Of a stretch of DNA of 64,000 nt, positions 11,334-61,681 are shown in pieces (position 1 is the first letter of the stretch; every line of letters begins with the position of its first letter). The stretch comes from Trypanosoma brucei (lineage: Eukaryota), in the NCBI GenBank assembly GCA_000002445.1, contig CH464491.1:3680001-3744000 (forward strand), written 5' to 3'. Below the pieces are notes generated by a model. That model searched no databases. It was not told the origin of the DNA and was given only the letters and a program-made list of their open reading frames with translations. Made by a program: the position numbers and the translations under genes.

Positions 11334-11364
11334 GGGAGGGGAGGGGAGGGGGGGGGACGGGGGG
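11334..11364 (+). repeat. G-rich tract (G-quadruplex-capable)
   Basis: gggaggggaggggagggggggggacgggggg has at least four runs of 3 or more G within 31 nt on the + strand. Confidence 0.8.
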
Positions 11365-11871: not shown

Positions 11872-11901
11872 TGCTTGTGTGCTTGTGTGTGTGTGTGTGT
11901 G
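11872..11901 (+). repeat. (GT)n microsatellite
   Basis: gcttgtgtgtgcttgtgtgtgtgtgtgtgtg read directly. Confidence 0.85.
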
Positions 11902-12021
11902 ATTTATTAGTTGTACAGGCGCCCGTCAGAAGTACTGGTGGTTGTATAGTAGGTATATTATTCTTTTAATACCTCCATAGTGCTAATAAACAAAACAAGT
12001 GGCTCAGTAAACTCTTTAACA

Positions 12022-12058
12022 AAACAAACAAACAAACAAACAAACACACACACACACA
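12022..12058 (+). repeat. (CAAA)n-(CA)n compound microsatellite
   Basis: aaacaaacaaacaaacaaacaaacacacacacacacata. The complementary (GTTT/GT)n follows at 12121-12150. Confidence 0.85.
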
Positions 12059-12154
12059 TACAGGAAAAAAAAAAGAGAGAGAAGGAGAGGGAAAAGCGGA
12101 AAGGTGAAACAAAGATTTGGGTTTGTTTGTGTGTTTGTGTGTTTGTGTGGGAAC

Positions 12155-12547
12155 ATGTCCATAAGTCAAGTGGATCTCGAGCACTCGCCTCATCCCGCAT
12201 TTCAAGTCGCCACCTTCTCAGCTACGGATGAATCCGCTGAAGGGGCCGCGACATCTCCTGTCGGTGACGGCGAGTGTTTTGGAGGTGTCCGCAACGGCGT
12301 GTCCACCAACTCCATAAAAAGTGCGGCGGAACTTCTGTCAGTGCATCAGAAAACATTGATAGATATTAGTCTAACATTTCCAGCAAGAGCACCAACATTA
12401 GATTTACTGGATATGCATGGTATTACGTTAAGTCGCCGTACGTTGCGAGCCGACTTGCCAGATCCCGATGGAAGGGATGCGGCATTCAGTAAACTTGAGG
12501 AGTTTCGGTTTGGAGATGATCATTCAGATGATCCGTCAAACCTTTGA
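12155..12547 (+). CDS. hypothetical small protein (weak)
   Basis: The track ORF starts at GTG 12104 within a (GTTT/GT)n tract. The first ATG is at 12155 (MSISQVDLEH...), giving 130 aa. Composition is not low-complexity, but I recognise no domain and it could be non-coding. Confidence 0.3.
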   Translation: MSISQVDLEHSPHPAFQVATFSATDESAEGAATSPVGDGECFGGVRNGVSTNSIKSAAELLSVHQKTLIDISLTFPARAPTLDLLDMHGITLSRRTLRADLPDPDGRDAAFSKLEEFRFGDDHSDDPSNL

Positions 12548-15500: not shown

Positions 15501-16094
15501 TTTTTTTATTTTTGTGGGTGCAAAACAGAAGGGTAATTCGTTTGTTATTTTGTTTTTTTTAAGTACTCAGCGATAGCTGAAGTGCGGGGTGTATATATAT
15601 ATATATAAGGTGGGTACGATTCGGGGAATGGTAAAAAATTAAGAAAAAGAAAGGATATCATGCAAAATAAACCAATGAGCTTACCGATGACGTTTTTTTT
15701 AAAAATCTAAACAAAAAGAACACTTTTGTTTATTGGGAACTTGTTTTTGTTTTTTTTTATTTTTCCTTTGTTGATTACTGTCAATATCTTCTTCATTTTG
15801 TTGTACCATTGTTATCAGGTAAAGTTAATGGCTGACAAATCAATTGGGTTGCTTATGCTTCCATCCATCGCATTTGATGAACAACACACCAACGAATATC
15901 TGCTCCCTCATCTTCTTTTTTTCTTTCTTTTCTTTTAATGCTGTTATTTCATCAGTGACATCTCATTCCATTCTTTAAAGACTGTTACTTTTTGTTTTGC
16001 ATGTCAATTTATATGCTTATTTCCCCTTCTTTTCTCTTCTTTGAAATGCCGTTTTGATTATGTCAGCGCGCGTAGGCACCAATCCGCGTACTTA
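12548..16094. other. 3.5-kb ORF-free AT-rich low-complexity block
   Basis: This has the same character as the block at 34.5-48.1 kb. Purine-rich (12960-13560, 14476-14700, 15061-15480) and T-rich (13600-14460, 15480-16040) blocks alternate. Only short low-complexity ORFs are present. Confidence 0.8.
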
Positions 16095-37500: not shown

Positions 37501-40500
37501 AAAATGAAAAAAAAAAGAAAAACACGTTTGTATTTAATAATGGGGAAATGGAGTCCCTTTCTTTTCATTTCATTTCTTTCCTTCTTTATTCTCTCTCACA
37601 TAGATGGACAGTACGAGATATGCATTCACAGCAAACCAAAAAAATAAATAAATAAATAAAACAACCACTAATGATAATAATAACAGCGACAGCTAAATAT
37701 ATTAGTTTATGTTGCTTTTTTTCTTTTTTCTTTTTTCTTTTTTGTTTTTAACACTTTCACTCACTCTTTCACTTTTCCTCTTGTGTTATATATTTTTACA
37801 TTTTTATATTTTGAAATTTTTTTTTTTAAAAAATGCGCGGGCCCCCCCTTTTATTAAAGTTCCACCCCCCATTTCCCTTTCCACTGGCCTTCTTTTTTTT
37901 TTTTTATCTTTTTTTTTTAAAGGAGGAAAAAAAAGCAACAACAGCAACGACAAAAAGAGAGAAGTGAAGGAATGAAAATGAAAATGAAATAAATGGAGGT
38001 GCGTGTGTTGGGGGTTTGGGGGAGGGAAAATGAAATTTCAGTTTTTGGGCCCGTGCTTCACCTCAAACAAAAATAAAAAATAAAAAAGAATAATAATAAT
38101 AATAACAACAACAACTATTATTATTACTGTTAAAAAAAAGGAGATTTTTTTTCTTTTTTGGAGAGATGGAAGGAAGGGAAAATATTTTTGTGTTTGATGT
38201 TTGTGGGTGTGTGCGTTTTGATGTTCTTATGTCGTTTTTTTTGTTTTTTTGTTTTATTTTGTTCCCCTTTTGTATACTTATTTATGTAATGGAAGTGGAG
38301 AGGAAAAGAATGAGGAGAGAGGTGAATAAAATAAAGATAATAAAAAAAATAAAAGTAATAACACAACGTTATATCAAATGCAATGGAAGAGAGAAACAAG
38401 AGGAAGGGGGAAAAAATGAAAAAAAAAAAGGAAACACACATTTTTTGAACATGCACTTGAACGCTTGAATGAATAAGCGGATGTATGAATACAAATTAAA
38501 GAAAAAAAACAGGTGGAGTATATGAAAAATATGAATGGAGAAAATGAAAGACATGTTGAATTCGTTGAATTGCATTTGGTTGAAATGAAATGAAAAGAGA
38601 AGAAAAGAAAAGATGTACGTATGAATGAATGGATGATTGAAAGCATTACATTGACGAAAGAAAGAAAAGAGAGAAAAGTATACGAGAAAAAACACACATA
38701 CATACACATGAGTACATATATATATTTTTATACATTAGTATATGTTTATATAAATGTGTATGTATCAAACAAACAAACAAAAGAAAGTAAATATGTGATG
38801 GAGAGGCAGAACAAATTGAAGGAAATATTGCGAATGTTTCAGCAGAGAATAAAAACTGGAAAACAAAAAGAAAAAGGAAAAAGGAAAAAGAAAGAAAGAG
38901 AGGGAACGGAACAGCAATAGCACCCATACACACATACACAAACAGAAAAAAAAAAAAGAACAAAAGAAAAACAAAGGCAGAAACAAGAGCGATTAACAGA
39001 AACATTTTTTTTTAAAAAAAAGAGAAAGAAAGAAAGAAGGAAAGAGAAAGAAAATTTAAGTTGAAATTTTTATTTCTTTTCAACTTAAAACGTTTGTGGT
39101 GACGGCTGTGAAGGAAAGTAATAATAATGAGATGGATGATGGAGGGGAGCCCAACGTGGAGATGAAAAGAGCGTTTTATTTTGTTTTAATTTTTCCTTGA
39201 ACACTGAAGGGGGAGGGAAGCTTCTTTTTTTTTTTTCACTTAAAAAAAAAAAATTAAAACTCTGCGAGAGCAGAGAAGAGGGGAGGTGTGGAGATCTTCT
39301 TTTTTTTCTTTTTATCTTTAAATAAGTATCAATTAGATAATGGAGGGACGAGTTTATTAATATAAATTCTGTAGAAGGATACAGAACGACAAACTAATTG
39401 AAATATGAAAGGAAAAAAAAATGAAAATAATAACAATAATAATAATATTAAGGTAGGAGAAAGTCAGTTATTTACAAATTAATCAAACGTCTCACATGCA
39501 CCTCACACATTGAAAGGAAGGAAAGTAAATAGATCAATTAATTAATTAATTCAAAGGCCGATGGAAGTGAAAGGAGTGAAAGAAAAAGAAAAATGAAATA
39601 AAATAACAAAGACAGAAAAAAGAAAAAGACCAAACAAAAGAAGTGGTGTTGCGTATATTTGTACCGAATGGGAAGCCAATGGCGCAAGGCGGTGAGTTGA
39701 AGGGGACTTTTTTTTTTTGTGGAAGTTCCACCTTTTGCTCTTGCTTATTTTTTTTTTTTAAAAAAGAATTTAAATGCTTTTATTTTTCTTTTTTCTTTTT
39801 CTTCTTCTTTTTCGTTTTGTCACGCTGATATTATCAACTTCACCGTCCGTTTCGCTATTTTTGTTTTGTCTTCCTTCACTTCCTTTCCGTCAAAACGTTA
39901 AGCGGCAAAGCGAAAACAAAAAAAAGGTGTGGGGATGGGAGTGGGAAAAAAAAAATGGAAAATTTTCGTGAGAGTTTTTTTTTTTGTGGGAGAATTATAA
40001 TATTTGGTGGAAATTTTCTTTTTTCTTTTTGTTTTTTTTTAATTTTGTAAGTTGAACGAAACAAAATATATATATTTCTATGGATGAAAATGCGCATACA
40101 AAAGTGCATCGTAATTTTGAAAATATGAGGGATAATAAAAAAGGATTAAAAAAAAAAGAGAAGAGAAGCGTAGGGAATAGCTACTTTTCTTTTCCTTTTT
40201 TATTTTATTTTTCGTTGTAACATTAAACTATTTGAAGAAACTAAAGCGATGGGAGGGGAATAAATAATAATAATAATAATGATAAGAGAGAAAGAGATAT
40301 GGAGGAATAGATAAAAGATAAATTTTGCATTTTATGCGTATGTGTGAAGGAGATGGGAGAGGTGTGAAATATAAATTTATAAATAAAGGGAAATGGACCA
40401 AAAGGAGAGAGAGGGGTTGGAACAGAGGAGGAGGAGGAGGAGGAAAAAAAAAAGAAAGACAGGAAGAATAAAAATACAATTAAGAGGAAAACCTGAAGGA

Positions 40501-43500
40501 TAGCAAAAAATATATCAACAAAGAAACAAAAAAAAACAAAAAAAATAAAATGCTTGGTTGCATGACATAATATGAACATGCAATACTTTGATGGATTTTT
40601 CTTTTTCTTTTTTTTTTCTTTGGAGGGAGAGGTGTATGGGAGTGGGGTTTGCCTATCTTTTTGTTTAGTTTTGTACGCCATTCCTTTTTATTTTTATTTT
40701 GTTATTTACTTATATTCATTTATATTGTTGTATTTTTCCATTTGTACGCCATATGCACGTGTGAGATACGCGCTCACATTTTTGGCTCCCACTTGTTAAT
40801 TTCGTTCTTGTTTTTTTTTGTTTGTGTGTGTGGCTCCTTTTCCGCCCTCTTTTCTTTTCTTTCCCTTTTTTTTTGTTTTTTGCATTTGTATTTGCATTTG
40901 TGTGACTCATGCTGCTGCTTTGAATATCACATTTTTTTTTTTGTGAATCTGTAGAGTCGAAGACGGTGAGATGATGATATCAAAGAAAAAAAAAGAAAAG
41001 GGAAAACAAAAAAAATGTTAATGAAAAAAATGTATTGAAAAAAAAAGAGAAATACAAAAAAGGCACAAATGGAAATTAAGTCACGGAGGAAGTGGCTGTG
41101 TTAAGTTTTGTTTTCCTTTTGGCTCTTATAAATATATGTTTGCATTATATTGTGCCTTTTTTGTATTTCTTTTTTTTTTTTGTTAGGGAACTGCTTTTTA
41201 TTTTCCTTATTTTGGAGAGTCTCTGGAAAGAAAAAAAAACAATCGAAATAGGTGAATAGCGGAAATCGACAGTGCATGAAAAAAGAAAAAATGAAAAAAA
41301 AAGGAAAATGAGATTCATTTGAGGAAATATTTCGAAAAGAAAAGATTTGGTACATTACGGCTTCTCATTTGTGTTATGTTTTGAAGTTGATGAAAGCACA
41401 GACATGTAAGTGTGTGCTTGAAGATGTATATATTTATATATTTATATATGAATGGAGGATTTTTTTTTTCCAAGAGAAAAATCATTATTGTGAAGGTCAC
41501 GCACCGCTTCCTTTTCTTGTATATATTTGTATTGAAGAAAAAGAAAATGGAAATGGAAATCCATACGGTTGCTTATAATATAAATATGGACGACAGGACA
41601 GAAGATATAACATTGATATGAAGGAGGGAGAAAGAGAAAAAGAAAAAAAGAAAGAGAAAGGAATGTGATATTATTTTATCATATGGTACACAATGGTGAA
41701 ATGCATTGTCGTCCGCTTCTTCTTTCTTTCTTTTTTTTAAAAAAAAACTGTTTGTTTGATTTCTAATTTTATTCCTTAATGTGAAGCGATGCCACAGGCC
41801 TCGTTTTTTTCTTTTTCTTTTTCTCCTTGTTTTTTCGTGCTTTTTAACTTTCGCTACTCTTTCATTGCTTCTGTTGCTGCTGTCGTCAATATCATACTCG
41901 CTTTTTTTTTTCAAATTAATTCTCTTCCGCTACGGTGGGGCGGGCGGTGCCGCGTATCCCCTTCAACTTTCCAACATTTTAAGCGGTTCCTTCAAAATAT
42001 ATTTTTAAAAAATGAAAAAAATGAAAAAAAAATCAAGAGAAAACAGAAATGGAAATGTGAGAGAAGGGGGAGGGGAAAAAAAAAAAGAAGAAAAGGCACC
42101 ACCACGCTTTTGGATATCCGCACATGACTGATGTGCGTTTCTTTTTTTTTTTTTGCTGTGATAGGTTTATTATTATTATTAATATTATTAATATTACCAT
42201 CTTTTTTTTTTTTTAAAGAAAAAACTTTTTCGCTCTTCGCTCCTTTGAATAATATGCTAGCGGGAAGCGAAATATGTCCATTGTTCCTTTTGTTTCTTGC
42301 TTCTGTACGTGTTTTCTTTCCCCCCTCTTTTTTATTGCTTTGCTTCAGTAGGAAAATTAGTGGAGGTTGAATATATATTTCAGTTCGGAAGAAGAGGAGG
42401 AAATAAAATATGAAATGAAATAAAAAAAAATGAAATGAAAATTAAATTAAATTTGAGCAGAGAGAGGCTCCAAGGGAAGTAAATAAAATTAAGAAAACAA
42501 CAACAACAACAAAGAATGAATGATTTAATTAATTAACATAAATGAATAGGAGAGGAGTCAGGTGAGAAGATGAGAAGGAAGGGTAAAAGATTTGAATAAA
42601 TCGGAGAGATTTATCCGTTTGGTTGTTTTTGGAGAAGCGAAACTTTAAACTCTTTTCTTTCCTGATTTGTTTTTTTCTCCTGTACATTGTTTTCTATATA
42701 TATATAAATATATATATATGTATTCTTTATGTATGTATGCATTTATGTATTTGCTTCATCTTCTGCAGGCCCATCCATCCATTCATCCATCCTAAAATGA
42801 AAGTAATATATAAATATTGCAAACAACAAAAGGAAAATAATTTTATATAATTTTTTTTTTTCGTGTGGGGGTGTATGCAGATGAGATTTTATATTGCGTT
42901 TTGGTGCTCAATCAACACCATCACAGCTGGTGGAGAGTTTTTTTGTTAGAAGAAAAAAAAAGAAAGCAAAAAAGAGAAGAAAAGGATAATAATAAAAAAA
43001 AAGAGTGTTTTGGGGGAAATGGAGAGAATTAAAAAATAAGAAGAAATAATACCAGTGAGTTGCATGGGATTGTGGTACATAAATTATTCCGTAGCGATAT
43101 TTCTTCTTTTTTTTCTTTTTTACATTTTAATTGAAGGGCTGCCGCACAGACGCCTTCCTTTTATGCCTTTGGACTACAATAATTTATGGAGTTTCACTTT
43201 ACTTTTTTCTTTTGGGTTTTTTTGTTTTGTTTTCGGTGGAAACAATCCGTTGTTATAATTATAAATAAGTGAGTGTGAACAGGAGGTGTTATTTTATTAA
43301 TTTTCTCATTACTGTTGTTGTAAACGTTTATTACTGTTTTCTGTTTTGCATCGCTTGGGTGCTTGTGTGTGGTTTATTTGTATTTGTGTCGGAAGCATAT
43401 AAATATAAGTTTTTTTTTAAAAAAAAGAATAAATTTATTTGTATTTTGTTACTGTTTTTTTTTTCCCCTTTGCTTCCGCTGTTGTTGTTATTGCTGTTGT

Positions 43501-44050
43501 TCGGTTTTACATCCCTATGGCACGACGTTAAGCAAAATTTTTATTTTTCGATTCAAACGATTCTTCAGACGATTTCTTCGTATGCTTCTTCCATTTTCCC
43601 TAATCGCTTTTTCATGTCTGTTTTTGTTCGTTTTTTTTTTTGTACTTCACTGATTGCTCACTACTTCCGCTTCCCTCTTCCCTCTTTTCTCTTCTCCATT
43701 ACTTTTTATTTTTATTATTTTATTGTTATTATCAATATTATTATTATTATTACTGCTCGCATATTGCAGGGGTTTGAGCGAGGAGAAAAGGAGGAAAATA
43801 GTATATATATATATATATATATATAATTTATATAATATATATAATATATTTATATATTTTTCAGAGTGGTTGTGCACTTTAGGGACATCGTCTCGTTTTC
43901 GTATCTCCTCCCCACACACAAAAAGAAAAATTATGCAAATTTACGTCGCTGCTGTTAACTTCCTTTTGTTGTTTTTTTTTCTTATATTCATTCCTTATTT
44001 CATTTAAATTATATTGTAACCGTCTTACATCATTATTAGTGTCGTCATTA

Positions 44051-44099
44051 CTATTATTATTATTATTACCGTTGAGTTGTTGTTGTTGTTGTTGTTGTT
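44051..44099 (+). repeat. (ATT)n-(GTT)n compound microsatellite
   Basis: ctattattattattattaccgttgagttgttgttgttgttgttgttgtt read directly. Confidence 0.85.
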
Positions 44100-44708
44100 C
44101 TTTGTGTGTTTATTTATCTATGAAATGTTACTGTTACTATTACCTGATGTTCGTTGATGCCGTCTCTGTTTTTTTTCTTCTGTTTCTTATGTTTTATTTT
44201 CTTCTTTTTTTCCCCCTTTTTTTTTCCTCCTCCCCGCCATTACCCGTTGATTTGTTATTTCCGGCTCCTCCAACCTGCCGTCAACAACTATTTCTCTCTC
44301 TTTTTTCTCTCTCTCTTTTTTTTTGATTTATTATTTCGTTCACTGCCATCTTTTCTTTACCTTTTTAGTTTTTTTTTTGTTTTCCATTCCGTTACTTTGT
44401 GTATTTGATGCCGCTGCCGCTTTTGGAGGAAGGACAAATAACCCAAGTGGTGTGATGATTATCATCACAAAAAGTAATAGTAATATCAATATTTGTTTTT
44501 TTGTTGTTATTATTAATAATTAAGAGAAAAAAGTTATCATTTTTTTTTCTTGGTTTTTGATATTGAGTGGTATGGGAAAGCTGAATATAGAAATATATAT
44601 CTCGAAAGCGAAGAGTCGAAACGGTACATGAAACTTAAGATCATTTTCTTCTTTTTTTTAATTTGTTTTTTACTTTTTTCCTTCTTCTTTCACATATACA
44701 CACATATA

Positions 44709-44739
<31 letters not shown>

Positions 44740-44840
44740 TGTGTAAGTGTATTTTTATGTATGTATGTGTGTAACCCTTCTATAAGGGCTCGGAGGAAAA
44801 AAAAGTAAAAGATAAAATAAAATAAAATGAAAAGAAATGC

Positions 44841-44865
44841 AATGGAATGGAATGAAATGAAATGG
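44841..44865 (+). repeat. (AATGR)5 pentanucleotide repeat
   Basis: aatggaatggaatgaaatgaaatgg. Related aatgaaatgaaa motifs recur at ~37971, 38571, 42411 and 45826. Confidence 0.7.
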
Positions 44866-46450
44866 AAAGAAGTAAATTAAATGAGTGGAGGAAAATTTAT
44901 AAAGTTGATTACTTTGGTTTTTTTATATTTATTTATCGTTTGGTACGTGTGCGTGCATGCGTGTGAGGTGTGCTGTCCCAGAACATATCATATCATATTA
45001 TATTATAATATAATAAAATATATCTTTGCGTATCTTTTTTTTTTTTTGCACACAGGTATATATAAATATATAAATAAATAATAAATAAATAATAATAATA
45101 ATATATATATATATTTGGCATTTTCCCTGAAGGAAATGCTTTTATTATGTCAGAAGGAAGGGGGAAAACAAAAAAAAAATAATTTCATATGGACAACAAC
45201 AACAGCAACAAAACTTTTCTTTTAAAATGTCTGCTGAAAGCGAGGTGTTTGAATGTTTTTTTGTTTTTTCTTTAATTTTTACCTTCTTTCCGTTTCTTTT
45301 TATTCAAAGGGTTCCTCTTCATATACGGACGTAATATTATATATTATATCAAAATATTAACATGTTGTCCGGACCCTTGTGCGAGTGTGTTTTATTCATT
45401 TATTTTGTTTTATTTTGTTTTTAAAAATATATAATTCATGCATGGTGGCAGTTCCACCACGCTGAGCGATATTGGACAAACAAACATCGAAAGTGAAAAA
45501 TATTAATAAAAATAGTAATAATAATGATAATAGTGGTGATGAAGGAAATAAGAACAAAAAAAAGGTAAATAAGTGGAAAGTAAGAAGAAAAAGAAGTTGC
45601 AACTCAGAAAAATTATTAGAAATTTGAAAAAAAAATAAAGGAAGGTAAAGCAGCTGAACTTCCGTGATCCTTCCGCTGGATCATTTTTTTTTTTTAATCC
45701 TTCTTTTCTTTTCTTTTGTGCTTGCGCTTGCTTCCCTTTCTTTTCTCTGTTTCCCCCTTATTTTTGTTAAAATTTGTGTTAGCCACGGACCACGTCAGGG
45801 AATATCACAAAAAGAGAAAACAAAACAAAAAAATGAAATGAAATGATATGAAGTAAAAAATAAATACAGAAATAAATATAGTTAAACCCAAACATATTCA
45901 TATGCCTACAGCCTACTGTCAGGCGGGTCTGAAAGGAAAATGAGAAATGAATGTTTTCACTTTAAATTCTAATATTTACTGCACATTTTCTTTTTTGTCT
46001 GTCCTTTTTTTTCTTTATCCCCCTCTTCTCCTCTACCCTTCTTAAAATTCATTTTCCCCCGTGCACTTATTTGGCAAATATTACCATTACCATCACCATT
46101 ACAACTTCCACCTCTTCCTTTTTGCATCATTTGTTCCCACTTTTTTTCCCCCTCTTTTCTATTTTTCGTGTATTTGCCTTTCCCTTTGTCATTACTCTTC
46201 TTTTTTTCTTACTTTTTCTTTTTTTACTTTTTTTCCTTAATATTAAATATCATTTCTTATGCGCACAACCATTTCTTCGTGCTTCTTTTTTTTTTTGTTC
46301 CCCCATTTCCCCCTCCTTTTCCGCCTAAATATGCATTTACTTCGTGTTCCGCTGATGTATTTACTTTTTGTCTTAAGGTGAGACATGAGAGGACGTGAGA
46401 TAAAATGAAAAGGGGACGAAAAATACTGAAGGAATTTTATCGAATGATCG

Positions 46451-46502
46451 CCGATTATTATTACTATTATTACTACTACTATTATTATTATTATTACTAC
46501 TG
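46451..46502 (+). repeat. (TTA/TAC)n trinucleotide repeat
   Basis: gattattattactattattactactactattattattattattactactg gives poly-Tyr (YYYYYY) in ORF 46405. Confidence 0.85.
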
Positions 46503-48129
46503 TTTTTGTTATTTTTCATGTTGGCGCCGTCGTTTCGTCTTGGTTTCTTCACAGTGCATTTTTATTTTTGTCTCTTTGTTGTTTGGGTCGTTTTGCTCTT
46601 TTTTTTTTCTCTTTTTTTTTTTAAAAAAAAGGGGGGGAGGAGCAACCACTTCGGAATACCCGCGTATTGTTTTTTTTTCATTTAATCAGGAAGCGATTTT
46701 AAGGGAAAAGAATAGCGGAGTGAGGGGGAAAGAAAGCAAAAAAAAAAAGAACAAAAAAAGGAGGAAGAAAGAAAGTCAGCATAAGGTGAAGAAATGGGAG
46801 AGAAATGTAGTAAATTTTTTTTTAAAAAAAGAAAAGGTGTGCGCATAGGAAGTAATACGAGGGTGGAGGGAGGACCGAGTTTTTACTTACTTTTTTTTTT
46901 TTTACTTGTTGTTGTCGCTTACATGTGTTTCAGCAAAATAAATGTGTGGGGCAATGTATTTGCCATGTTTGGTGTTGTTTTCTTTTTTAATGGTTCGTGT
47001 TGTATTGTGTGAGTTCCTTTTTCTGTTTCGGATGTTGTTACGCTGATGGCTAGTTTTGTTGTTACACTGGCACTGAATAGCTCGCTATGTTATAACACTT
47101 ACATATCAATCAACATTTCCTTTATCTTACGTTGTTATATGGACATTAATTTTTGTAAGAGTTTTTTGTTGTAATCCCCCCCCTATTTCCTACATATTAT
47201 TATACAAGAGGCTTCCCTTCCTTTGCCACTGTTTTCTTTTCTTTTCTTTCTTCTTCTTCATGGTCTCGTCTGGATGACTTTCCATTTTGTTTGTTTTTCA
47301 TGTGTCTTGTGTGTTTCCTGCACGTCTACTTGTTAACATTATTCAGATATTGTTATTGTCATTATCATCACTTTCTTTCCTTTTCTTTTCCTCTTTTTTT
47401 AAAAAAATCTCTCTGACTGTTGGATTTTGTCCTCGTCGACTCACAGTGCTGACAAGAAAGTAAAAAAAAAGGAAAAAAAACATATATGCGCGTATATGCA
47501 TGTAAAGGTTGGATTTCTCCTGTACTTTCATTTATTCATGGATAATATGGATAATGTGGATAAATGGTTCTTGTTGATTTATTAATTCTACGTTTTTATC
47601 CTTACTTTTATCATTTTCTTCCCCCTCTCTTTCTCTTCCTCTCTGTGTCTGTTTATGTATCATTTTCAATAAAGATTTTGCGGCCTAGTCGAACTACCTT
47701 AAATTTGATCCTCATATCACCCGTTTCTATTCTCATTGTTATTGTTATCATTTTGAATGTTTTAAATTTGCGTGCTGCATTATTATTATTATTATTATTT
47801 GAATCGCAGCGAGTGAGTAATTCATTGAACTTAATCGAGGTATTTTAGCAAGGAAGGAAGGGGGAAAAGCAAAAAAAAAAACAAAAGAAGAAAACTACAT
47901 AAATTAACCGACCTACTGGAGATCGCAAAAAGGGACTTCACTTTGTTTTGTTTTCACTCTCCAGAAAGCAAAACATAACCAAAGTGGTGGTTTAATATTT
48001 TTTTTCTTTCAAGGATATACACAAAAATAAGCCAAATTAGTGGAGGCGCTACAGTTAAGTTTTAGGGCCCAGTCTATACATATATATTTCTCTCTAGGTA
48101 CAGTTTCTCCTTCTGTTTCTTCTGAGAAA

Positions 48130-53927: not shown

Positions 53928-55544
53928 ATGTCTCTGGCCTTTGATGAGTACGGCCGCCCCTTCCTTCTAGTGAAGGAGCAGGCAAATAAGGAGCGTGTGA
54001 CTGGCGTGGAGGCTCAGAAGGCAAACATACTCGCGGCCATAAGTGTATCCAACGTCTTAAAGACTAGCCTAGGTCCACGTGGAATGGACAAGATCCTTGT
54101 CACACAAGATAACGAGGTTGTCGTTACCAACGATGGGGCCACCATCATGGACCTCATGGACATTGACAACGAGATCGGGCAGCTTATGGTGGAACTCAGC
54201 AAGTCGCAGGATTCTGAGATCGGTGACGGTACCACTGGTGTTGTTTGCCTCGCTGGTGCTCTGTTGGAACAAGCGTCTGGCCTCCTTGACAAGGGGATCC
54301 ACAGCTCTCGCATCTCTGAGGGGTTTGAGAAGGCATGTGAAATTGCCTGTAAGCGGTTGGAGGAGATCGCAGACACCGTGCCCGTCAGCCGTGAGGAATA
54401 CAGTTATTTGCTGCAAACCGCGCGCTCAACACTCAACTCGAAGGTGGTAAACCGTGACCGTGATCGGTTGGCAAAGATATGTGTTGATGCGGTTCTTTCG
54501 GTCGCAGACATGGAACGCCGTGACGTCAATCTCGATCTAATTAAGATGGAGGGTAAAGTCGGTGGATGCCTTGAGGAAACATGCTTAGTGAACGGCATCG
54601 TCATTGACAAGGACTTCTCCCATCCTCAAATGCCCAAGGTGCTGAAGAATCCAAAGATTGCCATCCTCACATGCCCATTTGAGCCCCCGAAACCCAAAAC
54701 TAAACACACCGTGCACATTTCGAGTGCCGAGCACATGAAAGAAATTCACGAGCAAGAGCAGGAATACTTCCGCAACCAGGTCAAACTCTGCAAACAGGCG
54801 GGGGCAGACCTTGTCATCTGTCAGTGGGGATTCGACGATGAGGCAAATTATCTTCTCTATCGTAACGATCTACCAGCTGTGCGTTGGGTGGGTGGTGTAG
54901 AGCTTGAGATGATCGCCATTGCGACCGGCGGAAGGATTATTCCCCGCTTTGAAGATCTTCAGAGCGCCAAGCTTGGAACCTGTGGAACGGTGCGTGAGGT
55001 CGGGTTTGGAACCACAAAAGATCGTATGATCTTCATTGAGGAATGCCCAAGCAGCAAGGCTGTCACGATCTTCATTCGTGGTGGTAACAAAATGATGATT
55101 GAGGAGGCCAAACGTTCTCTTCATGACGCCGTTTGCATGGTCCGCAATCTCATTCGTGACAACCGTATCGTATATGGTGGTGGATCTGCGGAGATAGCGG
55201 CCTCAATGGCTGTGCTTAACTACGCCGATACGGTTTCCACAGTCGATCAGTACGCTATTCGGCGGTTTGCGGATGCCCTTGAGTCGATTCCCATCAACTT
55301 AGCCCTAAACAGTGGATTGGAACCCATCAAATGCCTCTCGCGTGCTCGCATTGAGCAAGTGGAGGGGAAGAACCCCTATGCCGGCGTGGACTGCATGGAT
55401 AGTGGAACACTTGACATGAAGAAGCAGCAGGTGTTCGAAACACTTCAGGGGAAGTGCTCACAACTCCGGCTCGCCACGCAGGTTGTGAAAATGATTTTGA
55501 AGGTTGATGACGTTATCGTAACAAAGCCCGAAGAGGAGGAATAG
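53928..55544 (+). CDS. CCT5: T-complex protein 1 subunit epsilon (CCT5 chaperonin subunit)
   Basis: [18 protein letters not shown]...[12 protein letters not shown]...[10 protein letters not shown]...GDGTTGVV: group II chaperonin ATP-binding motifs. The FDEYGRPF N-terminus is characteristic of the epsilon subunit. The 538-aa length fits. Confidence 0.92.
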
Positions 55545-56427
55545 ATGTGCTGTTGCAGGAGGTACGGGATGGAACGCTATGTTGGAGCGGGAGGGGGTCA
55601 TGCGCACGAACATATACACTTCGACTACTGTAAGGGCTGAAGGGAAATCAGGGGATCGTGTGGTTAGACCGTAGTCGTAGGGCACTTAAATGAATGATTA
55701 AGTAAACAAAAAAAAGAAGAGAATGAAGAAAGGACAAAAAAAACAACAAAAAAAACAAAAAGAGGTACGCGCTAGTCATTACACCCTTTGGCACACGTCT
55801 TTGTTCGCTTTTTACCGAGCTTTCAGGAATGGAGCGGGGAAGTGGATGCGGAGAGAAAGCTACTGAAGGTACACGGCGAGGAGAACAGGCAGAACATCAC
55901 GGTCGAACGGGTGGAGAAAGGTGAGGTGAAATAAAAATAAATGAAATATGATTAATATCTTTAAGTGGGATGCGCGAAATCAGACTGCAAGGGGAAGTAG
56001 AGGAATGCGTGGAAATGTGTAGACACCACCCCATTATTTGGATCGTGCACATCGACTCGCTCATTCTATATATTAACCCATTCATAGGAATGTGCAGGCG
56101 CTTTCCTTTACCCCCTTTTTTCTTTTCTTTTTTTAGCTTCTCTACTTGAAATAGCCGCTGTTGCCTCTGACGGTGATAGAACCCACCACAGGGCGTAGGG
56201 TGTTTGTGTGGAGGGTTCGGTGTTCCAATTAATGGTTTATTCGTGTTCTGAGAGCGTCTCTAAGTTTCTTTTCTTCTTTTCTATCTTTCTCCTCTTTTTC
56301 TTTATTTTACGCCATACCTTTCTGTCTCGTTGGTCACTCCGTACCAGCACTGTTACTTCAGTATAAACGTGGAGTGGTGGTTGTGGTAGAGGAGGTGAAG
56401 AACGGGGAGTAACTCCACGCCGTTTAT

Positions 56428-57513
56428 ATGTATCAAGGACGTAGTCAACAGCCGTTGTGGACCCCACCACCAAATTTTTCCCAGGTGGAAACCGGTATCT
56501 ATCGCAGTGCATACCCCACACTTGCGAGCGTCCCATTCCTCCACCATATTGGAATAAAAACGATTGTATTGCTTTCCATAGAGTTGTTACCAGTTCCTGT
56601 GGTAAGGGCAATCTCGGAGGGGGATGTGGTTGCAGGCACCACGTCCGTGTCGGATGACGTCCACGCATGGAAGGATAACGAGTGCATAAAGTGGCCCATA
56701 CGCATAGTTTCCACGGCTGATTTGTCAGAGTGGATGAATGAATACGTTTGTGCAAAAGACGATTTTGCTGTCTCAAGTGTTCAACGCGCTTTAGACTTTG
56801 CCTTGCAGCCAGACTTTCAACCTGTTCTTTTCACATGCCCGACGGGTGAGCTGCAGACCAGCGTTATTGTCGGATGTATGCGACGGCACCAGGGCTGGTC
56901 TCTAGCTGCCGTGCTTGCGGAGTGTGAGTTGTTTGTCAACGTTACGGGAGGCGTGCGCCAAAGTGTGATGAATTTTATAGAACAGTGGGACCCCGACGAA
57001 CATCCGGTTCGTGAAGAAGATATCGCGAAGAGAAAGCGTGAGTTGCTGTTGAGAGACCCTTCACTTTCTTATAGTGTCAAACGACACCGGAGGACGGTGA
57101 CCCACTCTGCGAGCGATCCTGATTCTGAATACGATGACCCTTTGGCTATGGGTACCTCACGACTTGGGCAAAAGGGTACCGCCGGAAACTCAGCGGGTAT
57201 GGGATTGTCACTATCGCCATATAAGAGTTCAGGATTCGATAGGTCTACATTGAGTTCGACGAGGGTAGGTGGTGACGAGTTGGGTTTGTCGCACTCGTCT
57301 CATGTCGTTATCAAACTCGCGTCCTGGTATACGGCTGCCATGAAGAGGCGTGCGGCTGCCGCTGAAGCAATCGTTGCGGCGAGGGCGAAGGTTCGTGCGC
57401 CCAGTGATCCCCTTCCAGAACCACACGAAAGGTATTTCGGTGTGCTGAATCCTCCGGCTTTGGATGAGCGCTCAACGTTTACAAAGAAGTCAATTGTCCA
57501 GGACCTTGACTAG
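56428..57513 (+). CDS. Siw14/PFA-DSP-like atypical dual-specificity phosphatase homologue with substituted P-loop (probable pseudophosphatase) and long C-terminal tail
   Basis: PPNFSQVETGIYRSAYP...LHHIGIKTIVLL parallels the plant/fungal PFA-DSP N-terminal region (PPLNF..V..GIFRSGFP). The P-loop position reads QPVLFTCPTGELQTSVIVGCMRRHQGWSL against the family HC(x)2G(x)2R + VGCLRKLQKW. The Cys and Gly are retained, but His becomes Thr and Arg becomes Gln. The ~170-aa Ser-rich C-terminal extension has an Ala-rich helix (RRAAAAEAIVAARAKV). Confidence 0.72.
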   Translation: MYQGRSQQPLWTPPPNFSQVETGIYRSAYPTLASVPFLHHIGIKTIVLLSIELLPVPVVRAISEGDVVAGTTSVSDDVHAWKDNECIKWPIRIVSTADLSEWMNEYVCAKDDFAVSSVQRALDFALQPDFQPVLFTCPTGELQTSVIVGCMRRHQGWSLAAVLAECELFVNVTGGVRQSVMNFIEQWDPDEHPVREEDIAKRKRELLLRDPSLSYSVKRHRRTVTHSASDPDSEYDDPLAMGTSRLGQKGTAGNSAGMGLSLSPYKSSGFDRSTLSSTRVGGDELGLSHSSHVVIKLASWYTAAMKRRAAAAEAIVAARAKVRAPSDPLPEPHERYFGVLNPPALDERSTFTKKSIVQDLD

Positions 57514-58055
57514 GGTATGCACTTTCGTGTATGCAAGTACCGTATGTGGCTACCGTGGCACCGAGAGTGCATTTATATGCACATGACTTTCAACTTTATT
57601 TGTGGTGTCGCCGTTGCAGTTTGTTACGCTGGTCACCTCACGACCCCTCCATAGTGCTGCTCCCATGCGTTTTTTTTTTGCGCGCGTGAAGTTGAGTAGC
57701 GAAGCACCTCATGCACACTGTCTATCTCTTCACTACGGCGTGTGTGTTGTTCAATTGTAGTGAGGATTGCATTTGTCAGGTTTCATTTATCTCGGCTATC
57801 TGCCGTTAGCCACATTTGAGGGTGCCTAACTCTATTGTAAGTGCTCACATATGCCTTTATCTTTTCACATCATCTGTTTTTCTTCCTTCTTGCCCTTGTC
57901 GTATAATCAATATACATCGCAAATGAAAAGGTTGATCGGGGTTTGATCCTTCTAACCTCGCCATTGCCTCCCACAAATTATCAGTGCTAACAATTCAACA
58001 AAGGATCAAGTCGGTGAAACTGTACTCCGTCAGTTAAGGTGGGTGGTGAAAGAAA

Positions 58056-60311
58056 ATGGTCTCTCTCCGGATCAGGAAAACACGACCCCCTCCTTTGGGG
58101 TTCTCTTTGGCTCTTCCTCCACCAAGTGTTGTAGGGGAGGTACGGGTCCAGCAGGGGAATGAGCTTTTTATTAACGTGGATGACACAAACATTTCACCCA
58201 TAATAACAATGGATGGTTCTCTTCCCACAGGGCAGTTCGTTCACGTGACTAATACAAATCTTTTTGTGCTTGTCGATGGTGCATCGTTGTTCACCGAGGC
58301 GAAAACGACACAGAGGGAAGAGCCACAATCTAATCATATTGGCGATTTGGTAGATAACAGTGCTTCCGCGGAGAAGGGAAGATCACCGCAGCGCTCTCCG
58401 TGCAGCAATTTGGGTGCGTCTGTAGACTCAGTTGAAGCAGCGATACGGGGCATTGAAGATGATAGCGGTGAGGTGCGCAGGGATTTATCGTCCTCCTTTA
58501 GTTTGTTGCCTAAAACTGAGGGCGATTCACCCGTACTGTCGCGGTGCTCTTCCCGCTGTCGGATGTCGTGCCAAGGCACGAAGGGGGTAAAATACCACGG
58601 CGGAGCGAGTCTGCCTCATCAGTACACGGCACTGTTTACAAAAGGGGCAGGTGCAGTGTCAGGGCTTGCTGCTGCCACAGCGGGCGCGAATAGGGTTGGT
58701 AATCGTGAAGTCAGGTGTAACGTTTTGCGTGGCAAGATACGTGGTTTCCTTCCTTGGTATGTTGTTGAACAGAACTGGACCACCTCACCAAAGTGTAGCA
58801 ATGCATCGACGAGTGGTACGCTAGGGGCGGCAACAGGTACATCGGCGGTGGCCTCACAATCCTCCGCTTCCTCTGTGCTTGTGGACACTGCCGTTGGCGA
58901 CAAAGTAGACAAGCATGCAAAGAGGAAAAACACCTTACTTGCCCGTGGGAGGGGGAATAACAGCAGATCAGCTTCGCTCTACGAAGTCGGACGCACTAAT
59001 CGATCATTGGATTTGAAAGAGGTAGAGGTTTTGGGGTTCGTAGGAAAGGGAACACAAGGAGCAGTGTACCGCGTTCTTCTGGACAACAAACTGTACGGCC
59101 TGAAGTGCATTGATGTAAGGGAGCTAACGGAGGCCAGCAGTTTGGTAGAGCACCAAAGCAGGAAGGGTGGACTCGTGAAAGAGCTCAATATGATTCGACT
59201 CCAAAGATCAAAAAGTCCACCACAATACCTGCTACGGTTGTTTGATGCCTCGGTTACAAGGGATCGTGAGAAGCTACACCTCCACATTCTCATGGAGCTA
59301 ATGAGTTTTAGCGTCGAGGACGCTCAGCGCATGGTTTCCCGTATCCCATCGGATGAAATGGTGAAGTTAACTGAGTCAGCCTTTCGAAAGCACATGGCTG
59401 GATCGCACTCCGTAAAGTTGAAACCCGATACATTCCTACAGAGGAACTCGGAATCCTGCGTGCATCTAACGGGAAGGAGGTCATACAAGACACCAGAGGA
59501 CTGGGAGATGAACATAGATCGACAAACGCCAGTACCGGAGATAATTCTGTCGATGCTTGCAGCTGATGTGCTTGGGGGCTTGAAAGAACTTCATGAAGAT
59601 TACGCTATTGTTCACTGTGACATCAAACCAGCAAATATATTAATTGACTACGATATGGAGCGCTTTCGACTTGCAGATTTTGGATGTGGTTGTCAGATGG
59701 ACCCACAGAGCCGGAAGACACGACCGGTGACTTTCGACTTGGGCTCAAAACTCTACAAGGCACCGGAGCGGCTGAGCAATGAGTTGTATAACGCAGGCGT
59801 TGAGGGTGGTTTATCGGAAGTAGAGTTCTCCTTCGATGCTGACGTATGGTCGTTGGGTGTAACGTTGCTTGAATTGAGAAATGGTGTTCATCCTTGCCAC
59901 CCTTTCAAGTCGGATTACTGGAACTACAGGAATAACCTTAAACTATCGCGTATGGTAAAGCCTGTTTCTTGGTCATATTCTTTCTACGACTTTATTGTTC
60001 GCTGCCTTATGAGGAAACCAGAACAGCGTTGGAGCGTCAGTAGGTTGCTGCAACACCCTTTTATTGTAAAATACAGCGAACTTCCCAGGGCCAAATTGAG
60101 GGTCTGGATGGAGAAGTTGAGAAGTGAGTCGGAGACCTTCCAGCGGCGACAGCAGCGTGAGTTGCTTGAGGAACATATTCTCTTGAGCACTGGCAGAAAA
60201 GGGCCGGACATGTACCGCCATCGGAGTCGCTCCAGCTGGGAGAGTTTCACGAAGTTCCTCAAAGTAGCTCCACATTATCAAGATGATGAAAAATTTCCCC
60301 ACTTGTGTTGA
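58056..60311 (+). CDS. serine/threonine protein kinase (STE-like, non-RD: HCD catalytic loop) with long N-terminal region
   Basis: Kinase domain in the C-terminal half: Gly loop LGFVGKGTQGAVYRV, the VAIK-equivalent YGLKCIDV, catalytic loop HCDIKPANILID (Cys in place of the Arg of HRD), then DFGCGC ... YKAPE. The N-terminal ~330 aa are Ser/Ala-rich and non-kinase. Confidence 0.88.
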   Translation: MVSLRIRKTRPPPLGFSLALPPPSVVGEVRVQQGNELFINVDDTNISPIITMDGSLPTGQFVHVTNTNLFVLVDGASLFTEAKTTQREEPQSNHIGDLVDNSASAEKGRSPQRSPCSNLGASVDSVEAAIRGIEDDSGEVRRDLSSSFSLLPKTEGDSPVLSRCSSRCRMSCQGTKGVKYHGGASLPHQYTALFTKGAGAVSGLAAATAGANRVGNREVRCNVLRGKIRGFLPWYVVEQNWTTSPKCSNASTSGTLGAATGTSAVASQSSASSVLVDTAVGDKVDKHAKRKNTLLARGRGNNSRSASLYEVGRTNRSLDLKEVEVLGFVGKGTQGAVYRVLLDNKLYGLKCIDVRELTEASSLVEHQSRKGGLVKELNMIRLQRSKSPPQYLLRLFDASVTRDREKLHLHILMELMSFSVEDAQRMVSRIPSDEMVKLTESAFRKHMAGSHSVKLKPDTFLQRNSESCVHLTGRRSYKTPEDWEMNIDRQTPVPEIILSMLAADVLGGLKELHEDYAIVHCDIKPANILIDYDMERFRLADFGCGCQMDPQSRKTRPVTFDLGSKLYKAPERLSNELYNAGVEGGLSEVEFSFDADVWSLGVTLLELRNGVHPCHPFKSDYWNYRNNLKLSRMVKPVSWSYSFYDFIVRCLMRKPEQRWSVSRLLQHPFIVKYSELPRAKLRVWMEKLRSESETFQRRQQRELLEEHILLSTGRKGPDMYRHRSRSSWESFTKFLKVAPHYQDDEKFPHLC

Positions 60312-61060
60312 CTGCGTTGATGTGTTGAATCTTGTTGTCTTTCTTCTTCGCTTTCTTTCCGTACCATCTTTCCTGTATCGTTCTAAGAAGAAGCGGCATG
60401 TCATATTAAAGTTCACGTGGGGGTGTGCATGCCCGGGACATCATTGAACACTATCGCGGAACAACATTTCTAGCCGTTCCGTTTTCGACCCGCAGGGTGT
60501 TGGCACGAATGGCCGTCTTTCTTTTACTTTTTGTCCGGTGGTTCTTTGAGATATCCTATTTGTTTCTACTCTTTTTACCGCGGGTGTGCTTGGGGTGTGA
60601 GTGTGTAGAGGGCTATGTGTACAGGCATCTGTTTAAAATTTCTGTTTTGAAGCTTTTCTGTATGTTTTTTTTGTTTCTACAACGTTACGTCATCATTCAA
60701 CCATTACACCATCCAACAGGGTTCCCCGCCGTGCTGGTTACTGGCTGCTGACAACTTTCTTTTTTTCGTTCTTATCTTTTTCGTGTAATAACAAATAATA
60801 AAGGGAATATATCCTTACTCCCTCCGTCCTCACAGCCGCTAAAGCAACCTTTTCTTTGTTTTTATATGAAATTCTCCCACTTCTTTTATTAGCTACTTTT
60901 TTCTTGTTGTACTGTGTGATATTTGTGATGCCACATTTATTGTGAAGCTCTTGTTGTGCATGGCTGTCTCCTCTTCAACTGCGTCCCTCTGCGCTGTCGG
61001 AAGAGACACAGAGAAGCAACAACAAAAAAAAAAGAAGGGGAGAGATCAAATTGCCTTTGA

Positions 61061-61681
<621 letters not shown>

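What the first reader, a model, noticed from the sequence alone, without database searches (positions are those of the whole stretch)
56428..57513. Siw14/PFA-DSP-family phosphatase homologue whose catalytic P-loop Arg (and preceding His) are replaced
The N-terminal 170 aa align along their length with plant and fungal atypical dual-specificity phosphatases (Siw14/Oca/PFA-DSP), which act as inositol-pyrophosphate phosphatases. The signature HC-x2-G-x2-R here reads T-C-P-T-G-E-L-Q-T. The nucleophilic Cys and the Gly are kept, but the invariant Arg that binds and stabilises the phosphate is Gln, and the His is Thr. This predicts either a pseudophosphatase (a substrate-trapping or regulatory paralogue) or an enzyme with altered chemistry. 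The protein also carries a ~170-aa Ser-rich, probably phospho-regulated, C-terminal tail with an Ala-rich helix. An inactive Siw14-like protein could act as a sensor or scaffold for inositol pyrophosphates in kinetoplastids.
Basis: partly seen in the sequence, partly recalled or inferred. Interest (0 to 1): 0.55.

Follow-up and report, generated by a model that had tools for sequence, protein, structure and literature searches.

The report
Known Arg-less Siw14-like pseudophosphatase gene
This trypanosome gene encodes a Siw14/PFA-DSP-fold protein whose phosphate-binding loop lacks the essential arginine, but the same gene and loop sequence were tabulated in the 2007 TriTryp phosphatome, so it is a known kind of probably inactive phosphatase relative.

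Summary
The ORF at 56428-57513 (+) encodes 361 aa. Residues 13-192 match Pfam Y_phosphatase2 (E 5.7e-24). Pairwise, profile and predicted-structure alignments all place T-C-P-T-G-E-L-Q-T under Siw14/AtPFA-DSP1 H-C-x-x-G-x-x-R-T.

It is not new. Brenchley et al. 2007 list Tb11.01.5870 (361 aa) with P-loop FTCPTGELQT in atypical-DSP group 4, described as lacking the catalytic Arg. They also list a canonical paralogue, Tb09.v1.0350 (IHCNKGKHRT).

All orthologues I aligned across trypanosomatids keep Gln-Thr. Every basic P-loop side chain that holds 5-InsP7 in AtPFA-DSP1 is replaced (P, T, E, L, Q). That argues against an inositol-pyrophosphate sensor. It favours a non-catalytic, OCA-like partner or regulator of the active paralogue.

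Among the homologues sampled, an acidic C-terminus of this kind occurs only in Arg-less ones, including non-kinetoplastid ones.

Orthology to a particular yeast Oca protein could not be tested. Interest is low.

The parts
56428..57513 (+). Complete CDS, 361 aa plus stop. It corresponds to T. brucei Tb11.01.5870 / UniProt Q382B1 of the 2007 phosphatome.
   Evidence: ORF list and translation. A 99% identical protein occurs in a public assembly. Table 1 and Table S4 of PMC2175518 give the same length (361 aa) and an identical P-loop.
56464..57003 (+). PFA-DSP / Siw14-like phosphatase-fold domain, residues 13-192.
   Evidence: Pfam PF03162 at E 5.7e-24. AF2 pLDDT is about 90. Foldseek target TM is 0.8-0.9 to AtPFA-DSP1 7mo* and Siw14 6byf/6e3b.
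56617..56697 (+). Lineage-specific, poorly conserved insert, residues 64-90. It lies inside the stretch (residues 57-117) that interrupts the match to canonical enzymes.
   Evidence: pLDDT is 46-65. Mean column identity is 0.30-0.46. HMMER alignments to PDB chains break here.
56833..56859 (+). Degenerate P-loop T136-C-P-T-G-E-L-Q-T144, in place of H-C-x-x-G-x-x-R-T.
   Evidence: Translation. Register. P138, G140, Q143 and T144 are invariant and C137 is present in 27 of 28 kinetoplastid orthologues.
57094..57297 (+). Ser/Gly-rich disordered linker, residues 223-290.
   Evidence: 21% Ser and 15% Gly; column identity about 0.3-0.4. pLDDT is below 50. The linker is absent from the 253-aa syntenic orthologue.
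57322..57387 (+). Ala-rich helix, residues 299-320, carrying the invariant Trp300.
   Evidence: DSSP helix 299-320 with pLDDT 83-89. W300 is invariant. The equivalent helix has pLDDT 83-87 in the short orthologue.
57412..57510 (+). Conserved C-terminal linear motif LPEPHERYFGVLNPPALDERSTFTKKSIVQDLD. The family consensus is PHxRYxGVRNPPALDxRSTFTKESIVEEDDD.
   Evidence: Translation. Residues 341-360 are the best-conserved 20-residue block of the protein, at 0.86. The motif is shared with non-kinetoplastid Arg-less homologues. pLDDT is 49-73, so it is flexible rather than folded.

Best explanation
The gene encodes a catalytically dead or nearly dead member of the PFA-DSP/Siw14 phosphatase fold, a kinetoplastid counterpart of the fungal and protist OCA-type pseudophosphatases.

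Shown:
- The fold is kept.
- The catalytic Arg and His and all basic substrate-binding residues of the P-loop are replaced.
- The replacement loop itself (C-P-[TL]-G-[ED]-x-Q-T) and an extreme C-terminal peptide are under strong purifying selection across kinetoplastids.

Inferred:
- The protein works by binding rather than by hydrolysis.
- It uses the remodelled, uncharged pocket and the flexible C-terminal motif as protein-interaction surfaces.
- Its most likely partners are the active Siw14-type paralogue (Tb09.v1.0350) and/or the other PFA-DSP-like paralogues. This would mirror yeast, where Oca proteins and Siw14 interact physically, their deletion mutants share phenotypes, and SIW14 overexpression suppresses the caffeine sensitivity of oca1, oca2, oca4 and oca6 mutants.
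- In that way it would tune the activity or location of inositol-pyrophosphate phosphatase.
For: Fold and register.

Loss of the AtPFA-DSP1 ligand residues K151, R152, K154, H155 and R156 (PMC9038691), which become P138, T139, E141, L142 and Q143. D191 becomes V180, while R188 is kept as the invariant R177 (alignment).

The nucleophile is dispensable in relatives. One trypanosomatid orthologue has Asp at that position (P0013). Arg-less homologues from red algae and some fungi have Asp, and others of unknown source have Ser.

Conservation of the new loop and of the tail across Trypanosoma, Leishmania, Leptomonas, Novymonas, Angomonas and a syntenic 253-aa orthologue.

The acidic C-terminal tail is found only in Arg-less homologues: 24 of 86 non-kinetoplastid Arg-less sequences against 0 of 72 Arg-containing ones, Fisher p = 1e-7.

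A canonical Siw14-type paralogue is present in the same genome.

Yeast precedent: Oca1 is inactive in vitro, OCA proteins interact physically, their deletion mutants behave alike, and SIW14 overexpression suppresses the caffeine sensitivity of oca mutants (PMC13573052; PMC8421204).
Against: No experiment or interaction prediction for the trypanosome protein was available.

Cys137, Gly140 and Thr144, which contribute to a reactive thiolate in AtPFA-DSP1, are kept in almost all kinetoplastids, so residual or different chemistry is not excluded.

In yeast, Oca6, the protein whose loop (HCTNGELI) most resembles this one, is the one OCA member without recorded physical interactions.

Deep common ancestry with the fungal and red-algal Arg-less proteins is not robust. 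In 100 NJ bootstraps with the P-loop masked, no replicate gave a clean clade. Outside the loop, the domain fits a profile of distant Arg-less proteins no better than a profile of Arg-containing ones, 130.8 against 130.3 bits.
Confidence: 0.6

Rival explanations
1. It is a stand-alone adaptor unrelated to the active paralogues. The remodelled pocket and the C-terminal peptide would bind other conserved partners, such as a trafficking or chaperone component that recognises an acidic C-terminus, and the phosphatase fold would serve only as a scaffold.
For: The tail is the best-conserved block and is predicted to be flexible, as expected for a short linear motif. It carries a Ser followed by acidic residues in most species. 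Yeast Oca6 has no recorded interaction with the other OCA proteins.
Against: No partner is identified. The motif matches no linear motif that I could name with confidence. In yeast, the oca mutants and siw14 share phenotypes, and SIW14 overexpression suppresses the oca mutants' caffeine sensitivity.
Confidence: 0.2
2. It is still an enzyme, or a redox switch, with altered chemistry. The retained Cys137 thiolate, supported by Thr144, the P-loop backbone amides and the helix dipole, would act on a neutral or less charged substrate, or would serve as an oxidation sensor.
For: C137 is kept in 27 of 28 kinetoplastid orthologues. G140, Q143 and T144 are invariant. R177, the equivalent of AtPFA-DSP1 R188 near the active site, is invariant. 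Oxidation of the active-site Cys regulates PFA-DSPs, and OCA genes were found through an oxidant response (PMC13573052).
Against: The Arg that stabilises the transition state is absent, and so are the His and Asp (H155, D191) whose mutation removes more than 90% of AtPFA-DSP1 activity. One trypanosomatid orthologue and many Arg-less relatives lack the Cys altogether. I know of no PTP-fold enzyme with CX5Q chemistry (my own knowledge, not tested here).
Confidence: 0.1
3. One reading: it is a non-hydrolysing receptor or substrate trap for inositol pyrophosphates that uses the former active site.
For: It is homologous to PP-InsP phosphatases. The Cys and the P-loop backbone, which bind phosphate through amide groups, are kept.
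Against: All five basic P-loop side chains that contact the 1-, 4-, 5-beta- and 6-phosphates are replaced by P, T, E, L and Q, and K186 has no basic equivalent. The loop gains a conserved acidic residue (E/D141). An uncharged or acidic pocket is a poor receptor for a ligand that carries about 13 negative charges (the charge figure is my inference from the chemistry, not a tool result).
Confidence: 0.07

Closest known systems
TriTryp atypical DSP group 4 (Brenchley et al. 2007, BMC Genomics 8:434): Tb11.01.5870, Tc00.1047053511725.240, LmjF32.1010
   Same: It is the same gene. The length is identical (361 aa), the InterPro assignment is IPR004861 (SIW14-like), and the P-loop string FTCPTGELQT is identical. 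[quoted passage not shown]
   Different: Nothing differs at the level of the observation. The paper gives no function and does not describe the conserved C-terminal motif or relatives outside kinetoplastids.
Fungal OCA-clade pseudophosphatases (S. cerevisiae Oca1, Oca2, Oca4, Oca6), sisters of Siw14/Oca3
   Same: They have a PFA-DSP-like fold with substituted active-site residues and coexist with one active Siw14-type enzyme. The Oca6 loop HCTNGELI shares G-E-L with C-P-T-G-E-L-Q (PMC13573052; PMC13216928).
   Different: One-to-one orthology with any yeast Oca protein was not tested, because the yeast sequences could not be obtained with these tools. Oca1 keeps the Arg (CCGMGRHR), Oca2 loses the Cys and Oca4 loses the loop. 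Whether the yeast proteins carry the C-terminal acidic motif is unknown to me.
Siw14 (S. cerevisiae) and AtPFA-DSP1 (Arabidopsis), active 5-PP-InsP phosphatases
   Same: The fold is shared (predicted; target TM 0.8-0.9). Conserved framework motifs are shared: PPxNF, YRSxxP, the VGCxRR helix and FIExxD. Cys, Gly and Thr of the signature are kept, as is the Arg equivalent to R188.
   Different: The catalytic Arg, the Janus His, the preceding His, D191, K186 and all basic P-loop residues are lost. The protein has an extra insert in the N-terminal half of the domain, a long disordered linker and a conserved C-terminal peptide.
Pseudophosphatase-active phosphatase pairs (MTMR5/13 with MTMR2) and catalytically dead paralogues that regulate the active enzyme in T. 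brucei (AdoMetDC prozyme)
   Same: A dead paralogue is retained under selection beside an active one. This is the working model for how it acts. The concept is cited in PMC2175518 and PMC13573052, and the prozyme example appears in the title and abstract of PMC5201418.
   Different: These are different folds and families. No interaction has been shown for this protein.
STYX-type pseudophosphatases
   Same: They are non-catalytic DSP-fold proteins.
   Different: STYX proteins are defined by replacement of the nucleophilic Cys. Here the Cys is kept and the Arg is lost. The TriTryp STYX group is a different set of genes (group 6).

Membership tests
PFA-DSP / Siw14-like family (Pfam PF03162, InterPro IPR004861) | Sequence match to the family profile above the curated threshold | tested here: met
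   85 bits against a cutoff of 27, E 5.7e-24, residues 13-192. A profile against Siw14/AtPFA-DSP1 chains gives E 1e-17 to 1e-25.
PFA-DSP / Siw14-like family (Pfam PF03162, InterPro IPR004861) | Cys-phosphatase (DSP-like) fold as in 1xri, 7mo* and 6byf | tested here: met
   The AF2 model has domain pLDDT of about 90. Foldseek gives probability 1.00 and target TM 0.79-0.91. This is a predicted structure, not a solved one.
Active PFA-DSP inositol-pyrophosphate phosphatases (Siw14, AtPFA-DSP1-5) | Catalytic signature H-C-x-x-G-x-x-R-(S/T) | tested here: not met
   The loop reads T-C-P-T-G-E-L-Q-T. Arg->Gln143 is invariant in 28 orthologues, and the His position is Thr here and variable elsewhere.
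Active PFA-DSP inositol-pyrophosphate phosphatases (Siw14, AtPFA-DSP1-5) | Basic P-loop and alpha5-alpha6 loop residues that bind PP-InsP and support catalysis (AtPFA-DSP1 K151, R152, K154, H155, K186, D191) | tested here: not met
   The aligned residues are P138, T139, E141 and L142, with no basic residue at the K186 position and V180 at D191. Only R188 is kept, as R177.
Active PFA-DSP inositol-pyrophosphate phosphatases (Siw14, AtPFA-DSP1-5) | Hydrolysis of the beta-phosphate of 5-InsP7 | not testable with these tools
   This needs a recombinant enzyme assay.
TriTryp aDSP group 4 (Brenchley 2007) | P-loop F-[TA]-C-P-[TL]-G-[ED]-[LI]-Q-T, with no recognisable D-loop or R-motif, and IPR004861 | tested here: met
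   The loop string and the length match Tb11.01.5870 exactly. Orthologues from T. cruzi and Leishmania are recovered as top hits.
OCA-clade pseudophosphatases | PFA-DSP-like fold with substitutions of critical active-site residues | tested here: met
   See the rows above. The definition is taken from PMC13573052.
OCA-clade pseudophosphatases | Phylogenetic placement with yeast Oca1, Oca2, Oca4 or Oca6 rather than with Siw14 | tested here: inconclusive
   Yeast Oca sequences were not obtainable. An NJ tree with the P-loop masked puts the protein among Arg-less homologues, apart from the Siw14-type (HCNKGKHRT) and Oca1-type (CCGMGRHRT) sequences. However, no bootstrap replicate gave a clean clade (0 of 100). 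Profile scores favour only the nearer tail-bearing group (154-168 bits against 115-122 for the Siw14 type) and not the distant Arg-less group.
OCA-clade pseudophosphatases | Lack of phosphatase activity; physical and genetic association with Siw14 and other OCA proteins | not testable with these tools
   There is yeast precedent only.
STYX pseudophosphatases | Replacement of the nucleophilic Cys | tested here: not met
   Cys137 is present and is kept in 27 of 28 orthologues.

The most novel reading that the evidence does not exclude
Arg-less PFA-DSP-like proteins may share an ancient module that has not been described: a flexible extreme-C-terminal peptide, ...NPPxLxxxSxFxxxES(I/L)VEEDDD-COOH, with a CK2-type Ser. 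It is better conserved than the phosphatase domain itself. In my sample it occurs only in Arg-less homologues. These comprise the kinetoplastids, one diplonemid with a related acidic C-terminus, and several non-kinetoplastid sequences of unknown source.

This peptide could act as a polyanionic pseudo-substrate or tether that plugs the strongly basic pocket of the Siw14-type enzyme. That would give a concrete mechanism for how OCA-type pseudophosphatases control inositol-pyrophosphate turnover.

Caveat: in the window's own species the acidic tip is eroded, reading KKSIVQDLD.
Probability: 0.1. Interest if true: 0.55.

Novelty: already known. Interest (0 to 1): 0.2.

Why it matters
As reported, the finding matters little. 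The Arg-less loop of this gene has been in the literature since 2007, and dead relatives of Siw14 are a recognised class. It has some residual value. No kinetoplastid PFA-DSP-like protein has been characterised in the papers I could search, and the roles of OCA-type proteins are still described as undefined in a 2026 review (PMC13573052). The very strongly conserved C-terminal peptide gives a specific handle, through tail deletion or peptide pull-down, for finding what these pseudophosphatases bind.

Tried and rejected
1. Assigning the current TriTrypDB identifier. From memory of old-to-new ID spacing I guessed Tb927.11.14060, next to RDK1 (Tb927.11.14070). This was rejected. The neighbouring kinase has no match to the description of RDK1 as membrane-integrated with a sensor-like domain, and the downstream genes are Maf-like and metallophosphoesterase, not DRBD18. 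Only the old identifier is given.

2. Orthology to yeast Oca6.
- The third homologue search with a 40-sequence Arg-less profile was limited by its word filter and returned only kinetoplastid and red-algal proteins.
- The Roma-Mateo 2011 paper is not held.
- The 2026 fungal pseudophosphatome paper has no supplements held as text.
- The afdb50 fold library was not available.

3. Monophyly of all Arg-less homologues. The NJ topology is suggestive, but bootstrap support fails and the profile comparison with distant Arg-less proteins is neutral. I therefore do not claim it.

4. Docking of the C-terminal motif onto its own domain. Two AF2 models give only pLDDT 49-73 and 55-66 for it, so there is no evidence for binding in cis. 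Model coordinates cannot be inspected with these tools.

5. Literature on this gene. Full-text searches for Tb11.01.5870, Q382B1 and the T. congolense identifier found nothing. The L. major identifier (LmjF32.1010) turned up only in a table listing in one review.

6. The antisense ORF 56237-56776 (179 aa, TTG start) overlaps the 5' end of the gene on the minus strand. I set it aside as a chance ORF without searching it for homologues; it lies antisense to a conserved CDS.

Full report
**What is there**

The window is from an African trypanosome of the T. brucei group. All long ORFs lie on the + strand. The nearest public protein is 99% identical, and the next, from T. congolense, is 67% identical. 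The ORF at 56428-57513 (+) encodes 361 aa. It sits between a CCT chaperonin subunit gene and a protein kinase gene, followed by a Maf-like gene. The same gene order surrounds a 253-aa orthologue in a distant kinetoplastid contig, which confirms positional orthology.

**Checking the observation**

Residues 13-192 match Pfam Y_phosphatase2 (PF03162) at 85 bits against a cutoff of 27. Three methods fix the P-loop register.
- phmmer against PDB aligns FTCPTGELQT with IHCNRGKHRT of Siw14 and IHCKRGKHRT of AtPFA-DSP1.
- A profile of 11 kinetoplastid domains gives the same register at E 1.4e-25.
- An AlphaFold2 model (domain pLDDT about 90) superposes on AtPFA-DSP1 and Siw14 crystal structures with target TM 0.8-0.9.

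The loop is therefore T136-C-P-T-G-E-L-Q-T144. His and Arg are lost, and Cys, Gly and Thr are kept.

Some details need adjusting.
- The similarity comes in two blocks around a lineage-specific insert.
- Only residues 223-290 are truly Ser/Gly-rich and disordered.
- The tail is not merely a phospho-regulated linker.

**It is already in the literature**

Brenchley et al. 2007, "The TriTryp Phosphatome" (PMC2175518), list Tb11.01.5870 (Q382B1, 361 aa, IPR004861 SIW14-like) as an atypical DSP. Their Table S4 places it in group 4 with P-loop FTCPTGELQT, beside Tc00.1047053511725.240 (FTCPTGDIQT) and LmjF32.1010 (FACPLGELQT). [quoted passage not shown]

T. brucei has:
- a canonical Siw14-type protein, Tb09.v1.0350 (IHCNKGKHRT), called TbPTP3 in PMC2994645;
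- a second CX5R protein, Tb11.03.0500 (LTCSMGRYRT);
- a second Arg-less one, Tb09.211.0210 (IHCLDGRHTT).

Arg-less or otherwise degenerate relatives of Siw14 are an established class, the OCA clade. It has fungal and protist members and is predicted to consist of pseudophosphatases. The yeast Oca6 loop reads HCTNGELI (PMC13573052; PMC13216928).

**Conservation**

In 28 kinetoplastid orthologues (Trypanosoma, Leishmania, Leptomonas, Novymonas and unnamed assemblies), P138, G140, Q143 and T144 are invariant and C137 is present in 27. Angomonas, recovered in the profile search, reads C-P-T-G-E-V-Q-T. The degenerate loop is thus fixed and selected, not decaying.

One orthologue (P0013) has Asp at the nucleophile position. 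More distant Arg-less homologues from red algae and some fungi have Asp there, and others of unknown source have Ser.

**Why the inositol-pyrophosphate sensor idea is unlikely**

In AtPFA-DSP1 the substrate is held by K151, R152, K154, H155 and R156 of the P-loop and by K186. H155 and D191 are needed for more than 90% of activity (PMC9038691). Through the alignment these positions map to P138, T139, E141, L142, Q143, no basic residue at the K186 position (it falls beside a two-residue gap, at about T173), and V180. Only R188 is kept, as the invariant R177. The loop has lost all positive charge and gained a conserved acidic residue, which is the opposite of what a receptor for a polyanion needs.

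The best-conserved 20-residue block of the protein is not the P-loop region (0.81 mean column identity) but residues 341-360 (0.86). They belong to the C-terminal motif, which reads PHxRYxGVRNPPALDxRSTFTKESIVEEDDD in most species and LPEPHERYFGVLNPPALDERSTFTKKSIVQDLD here. It is preceded by a helix carrying an invariant Trp.

AlphaFold gives the Trp helix pLDDT 83-89. The last 40 or so residues score only 49-73 here and 55-66 in the 253-aa orthologue. This is the behaviour of a flexible linear motif rather than a folded element.

An exhaustive search of 1.84 billion cluster representatives found the same kind of tail in non-kinetoplastid homologues, for example CATGELQT...CLVESDDD, CTSGIHQT...ESLVDDDD and CASGVHET...VSIVIEDDD. 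Among the sequences sampled, an acidic C-terminus occurs in 24 of 86 non-kinetoplastid Arg-less proteins and in 0 of 72 Arg-containing ones (Fisher p = 1e-7). This count is not corrected for shared ancestry, and truncated metagenomic proteins make it a lower bound.

Named Arg-less relatives come from:
- Malassezia, Kockovaella, Catenaria and Blastocladiella (fungi);
- Fonticula;
- Galdieria and Porphyridium (red algae);
- the diplonemid Namystynia.

Of these named relatives, only the diplonemid shows a related acidic C-terminus; the other tail-bearing sequences come from unnamed sources.

In salivarian trypanosomes, including this window, the acidic tip is partly eroded: KKSIVQDLD here, KKSIVEDVD in T. 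congolense and KESIVEDVD in T. vivax.

**Limits of the phylogenetic claim**

An NJ tree with the P-loop columns masked places the kinetoplastid proteins among the Arg-less homologues, apart from the Siw14-type and Oca1-type sequences. Three results weaken this.
- None of 100 bootstrap replicates gave a clean clade.
- With the loop removed, the kinetoplastid domains score 25-50 bits better against the nearer tail-bearing group than against Siw14-type profiles.
- They score no better against the distant Arg-less group than against all Arg-containing sequences, 130.8 against 130.3 bits.

I therefore treat a single ancient Arg-less clade as plausible, chiefly because of the shared tail, but not as shown. 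Orthology to a specific yeast Oca protein could not be tested.

**Mechanism**

My best-supported reading (confidence about 0.6) is a non-catalytic PFA-DSP-fold protein that acts by binding. The likely partners are the active Siw14-type paralogue and/or the other family members. This would parallel yeast, where OCA proteins interact physically, their deletion mutants behave alike, and SIW14 overexpression suppresses the caffeine sensitivity of oca mutants.

The fold, the loss of catalytic and ligand-binding residues, the selection on the new loop and tail, and the presence of canonical paralogues are shown. The partnership itself is inferred.

The rivals are:
- a stand-alone adaptor (0.2);
- retained Cys-based chemistry or redox sensing (0.1);

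**Verdict**

The finding is already known at the level of this very gene. Interest is low (0.2). The one new lead is the conserved C-terminal peptide, which is a possible handle on how OCA-type pseudophosphatases work.

Noticed in passing
window 34503-48039 (also 11039-16040): A 13.5-kb stretch has no ORF of 200 aa or more, GC of 0.28-0.34 and purine-rich low-complexity sequence. It lies between two + strand genes inside what looks like a single same-strand gene cluster. It has no tandem array and no Rfam match. A second gap of this kind, about 5 kb long, lies at 11-16 kb. These are unusually long gene-free intervals for a trypanosome core region. Very long UTRs are one possibility.
   Followed up: partly
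window 57412-57510; alignments A1 and A4: The extreme C-terminal motif (consensus PHxRYxGVRNPPALDxRSTFTKESIVEEDDD) is the most conserved part of the protein. It recurs in non-kinetoplastid Arg-less PFA-DSP-like proteins and in none of the 72 Arg-containing homologues sampled.
   Followed up: yes
L002 171-6388 compared with window 53928-61681: The gene order CCT subunit, PFA-DSP-like gene, protein kinase, Maf-like gene is conserved in a distant kinetoplastid contig. There the orthologue is only 253 aa, so the Ser/Gly-rich linker in trypanosomes is a later expansion.
   Followed up: yes
P0013 (trypanosomatid orthologue from a public read assembly), P-loop: The loop reads F-C-D-P-T-G-E-L-Q-T, with Asp at the nucleophile position and a Cys one residue earlier. 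This may be a lineage in which the catalytic Cys was lost, or it may be an assembly error.
   Followed up: no
window 58056-60311: The downstream 751-aa protein has a kinase domain match only in its C-terminal third (Pfam residues 486-670). No Pfam family at E<=0.001 was reported for the N-terminal ~480 residues. It is not RDK1, contrary to my first guess.
   Followed up: partly
window 56237-56776, minus strand: A 179-aa TTG-initiated ORF lies antisense to the 5' end of the gene. It was not searched for homologues; I treated it as a chance ORF because it overlaps a conserved CDS on the opposite strand.
   Followed up: no
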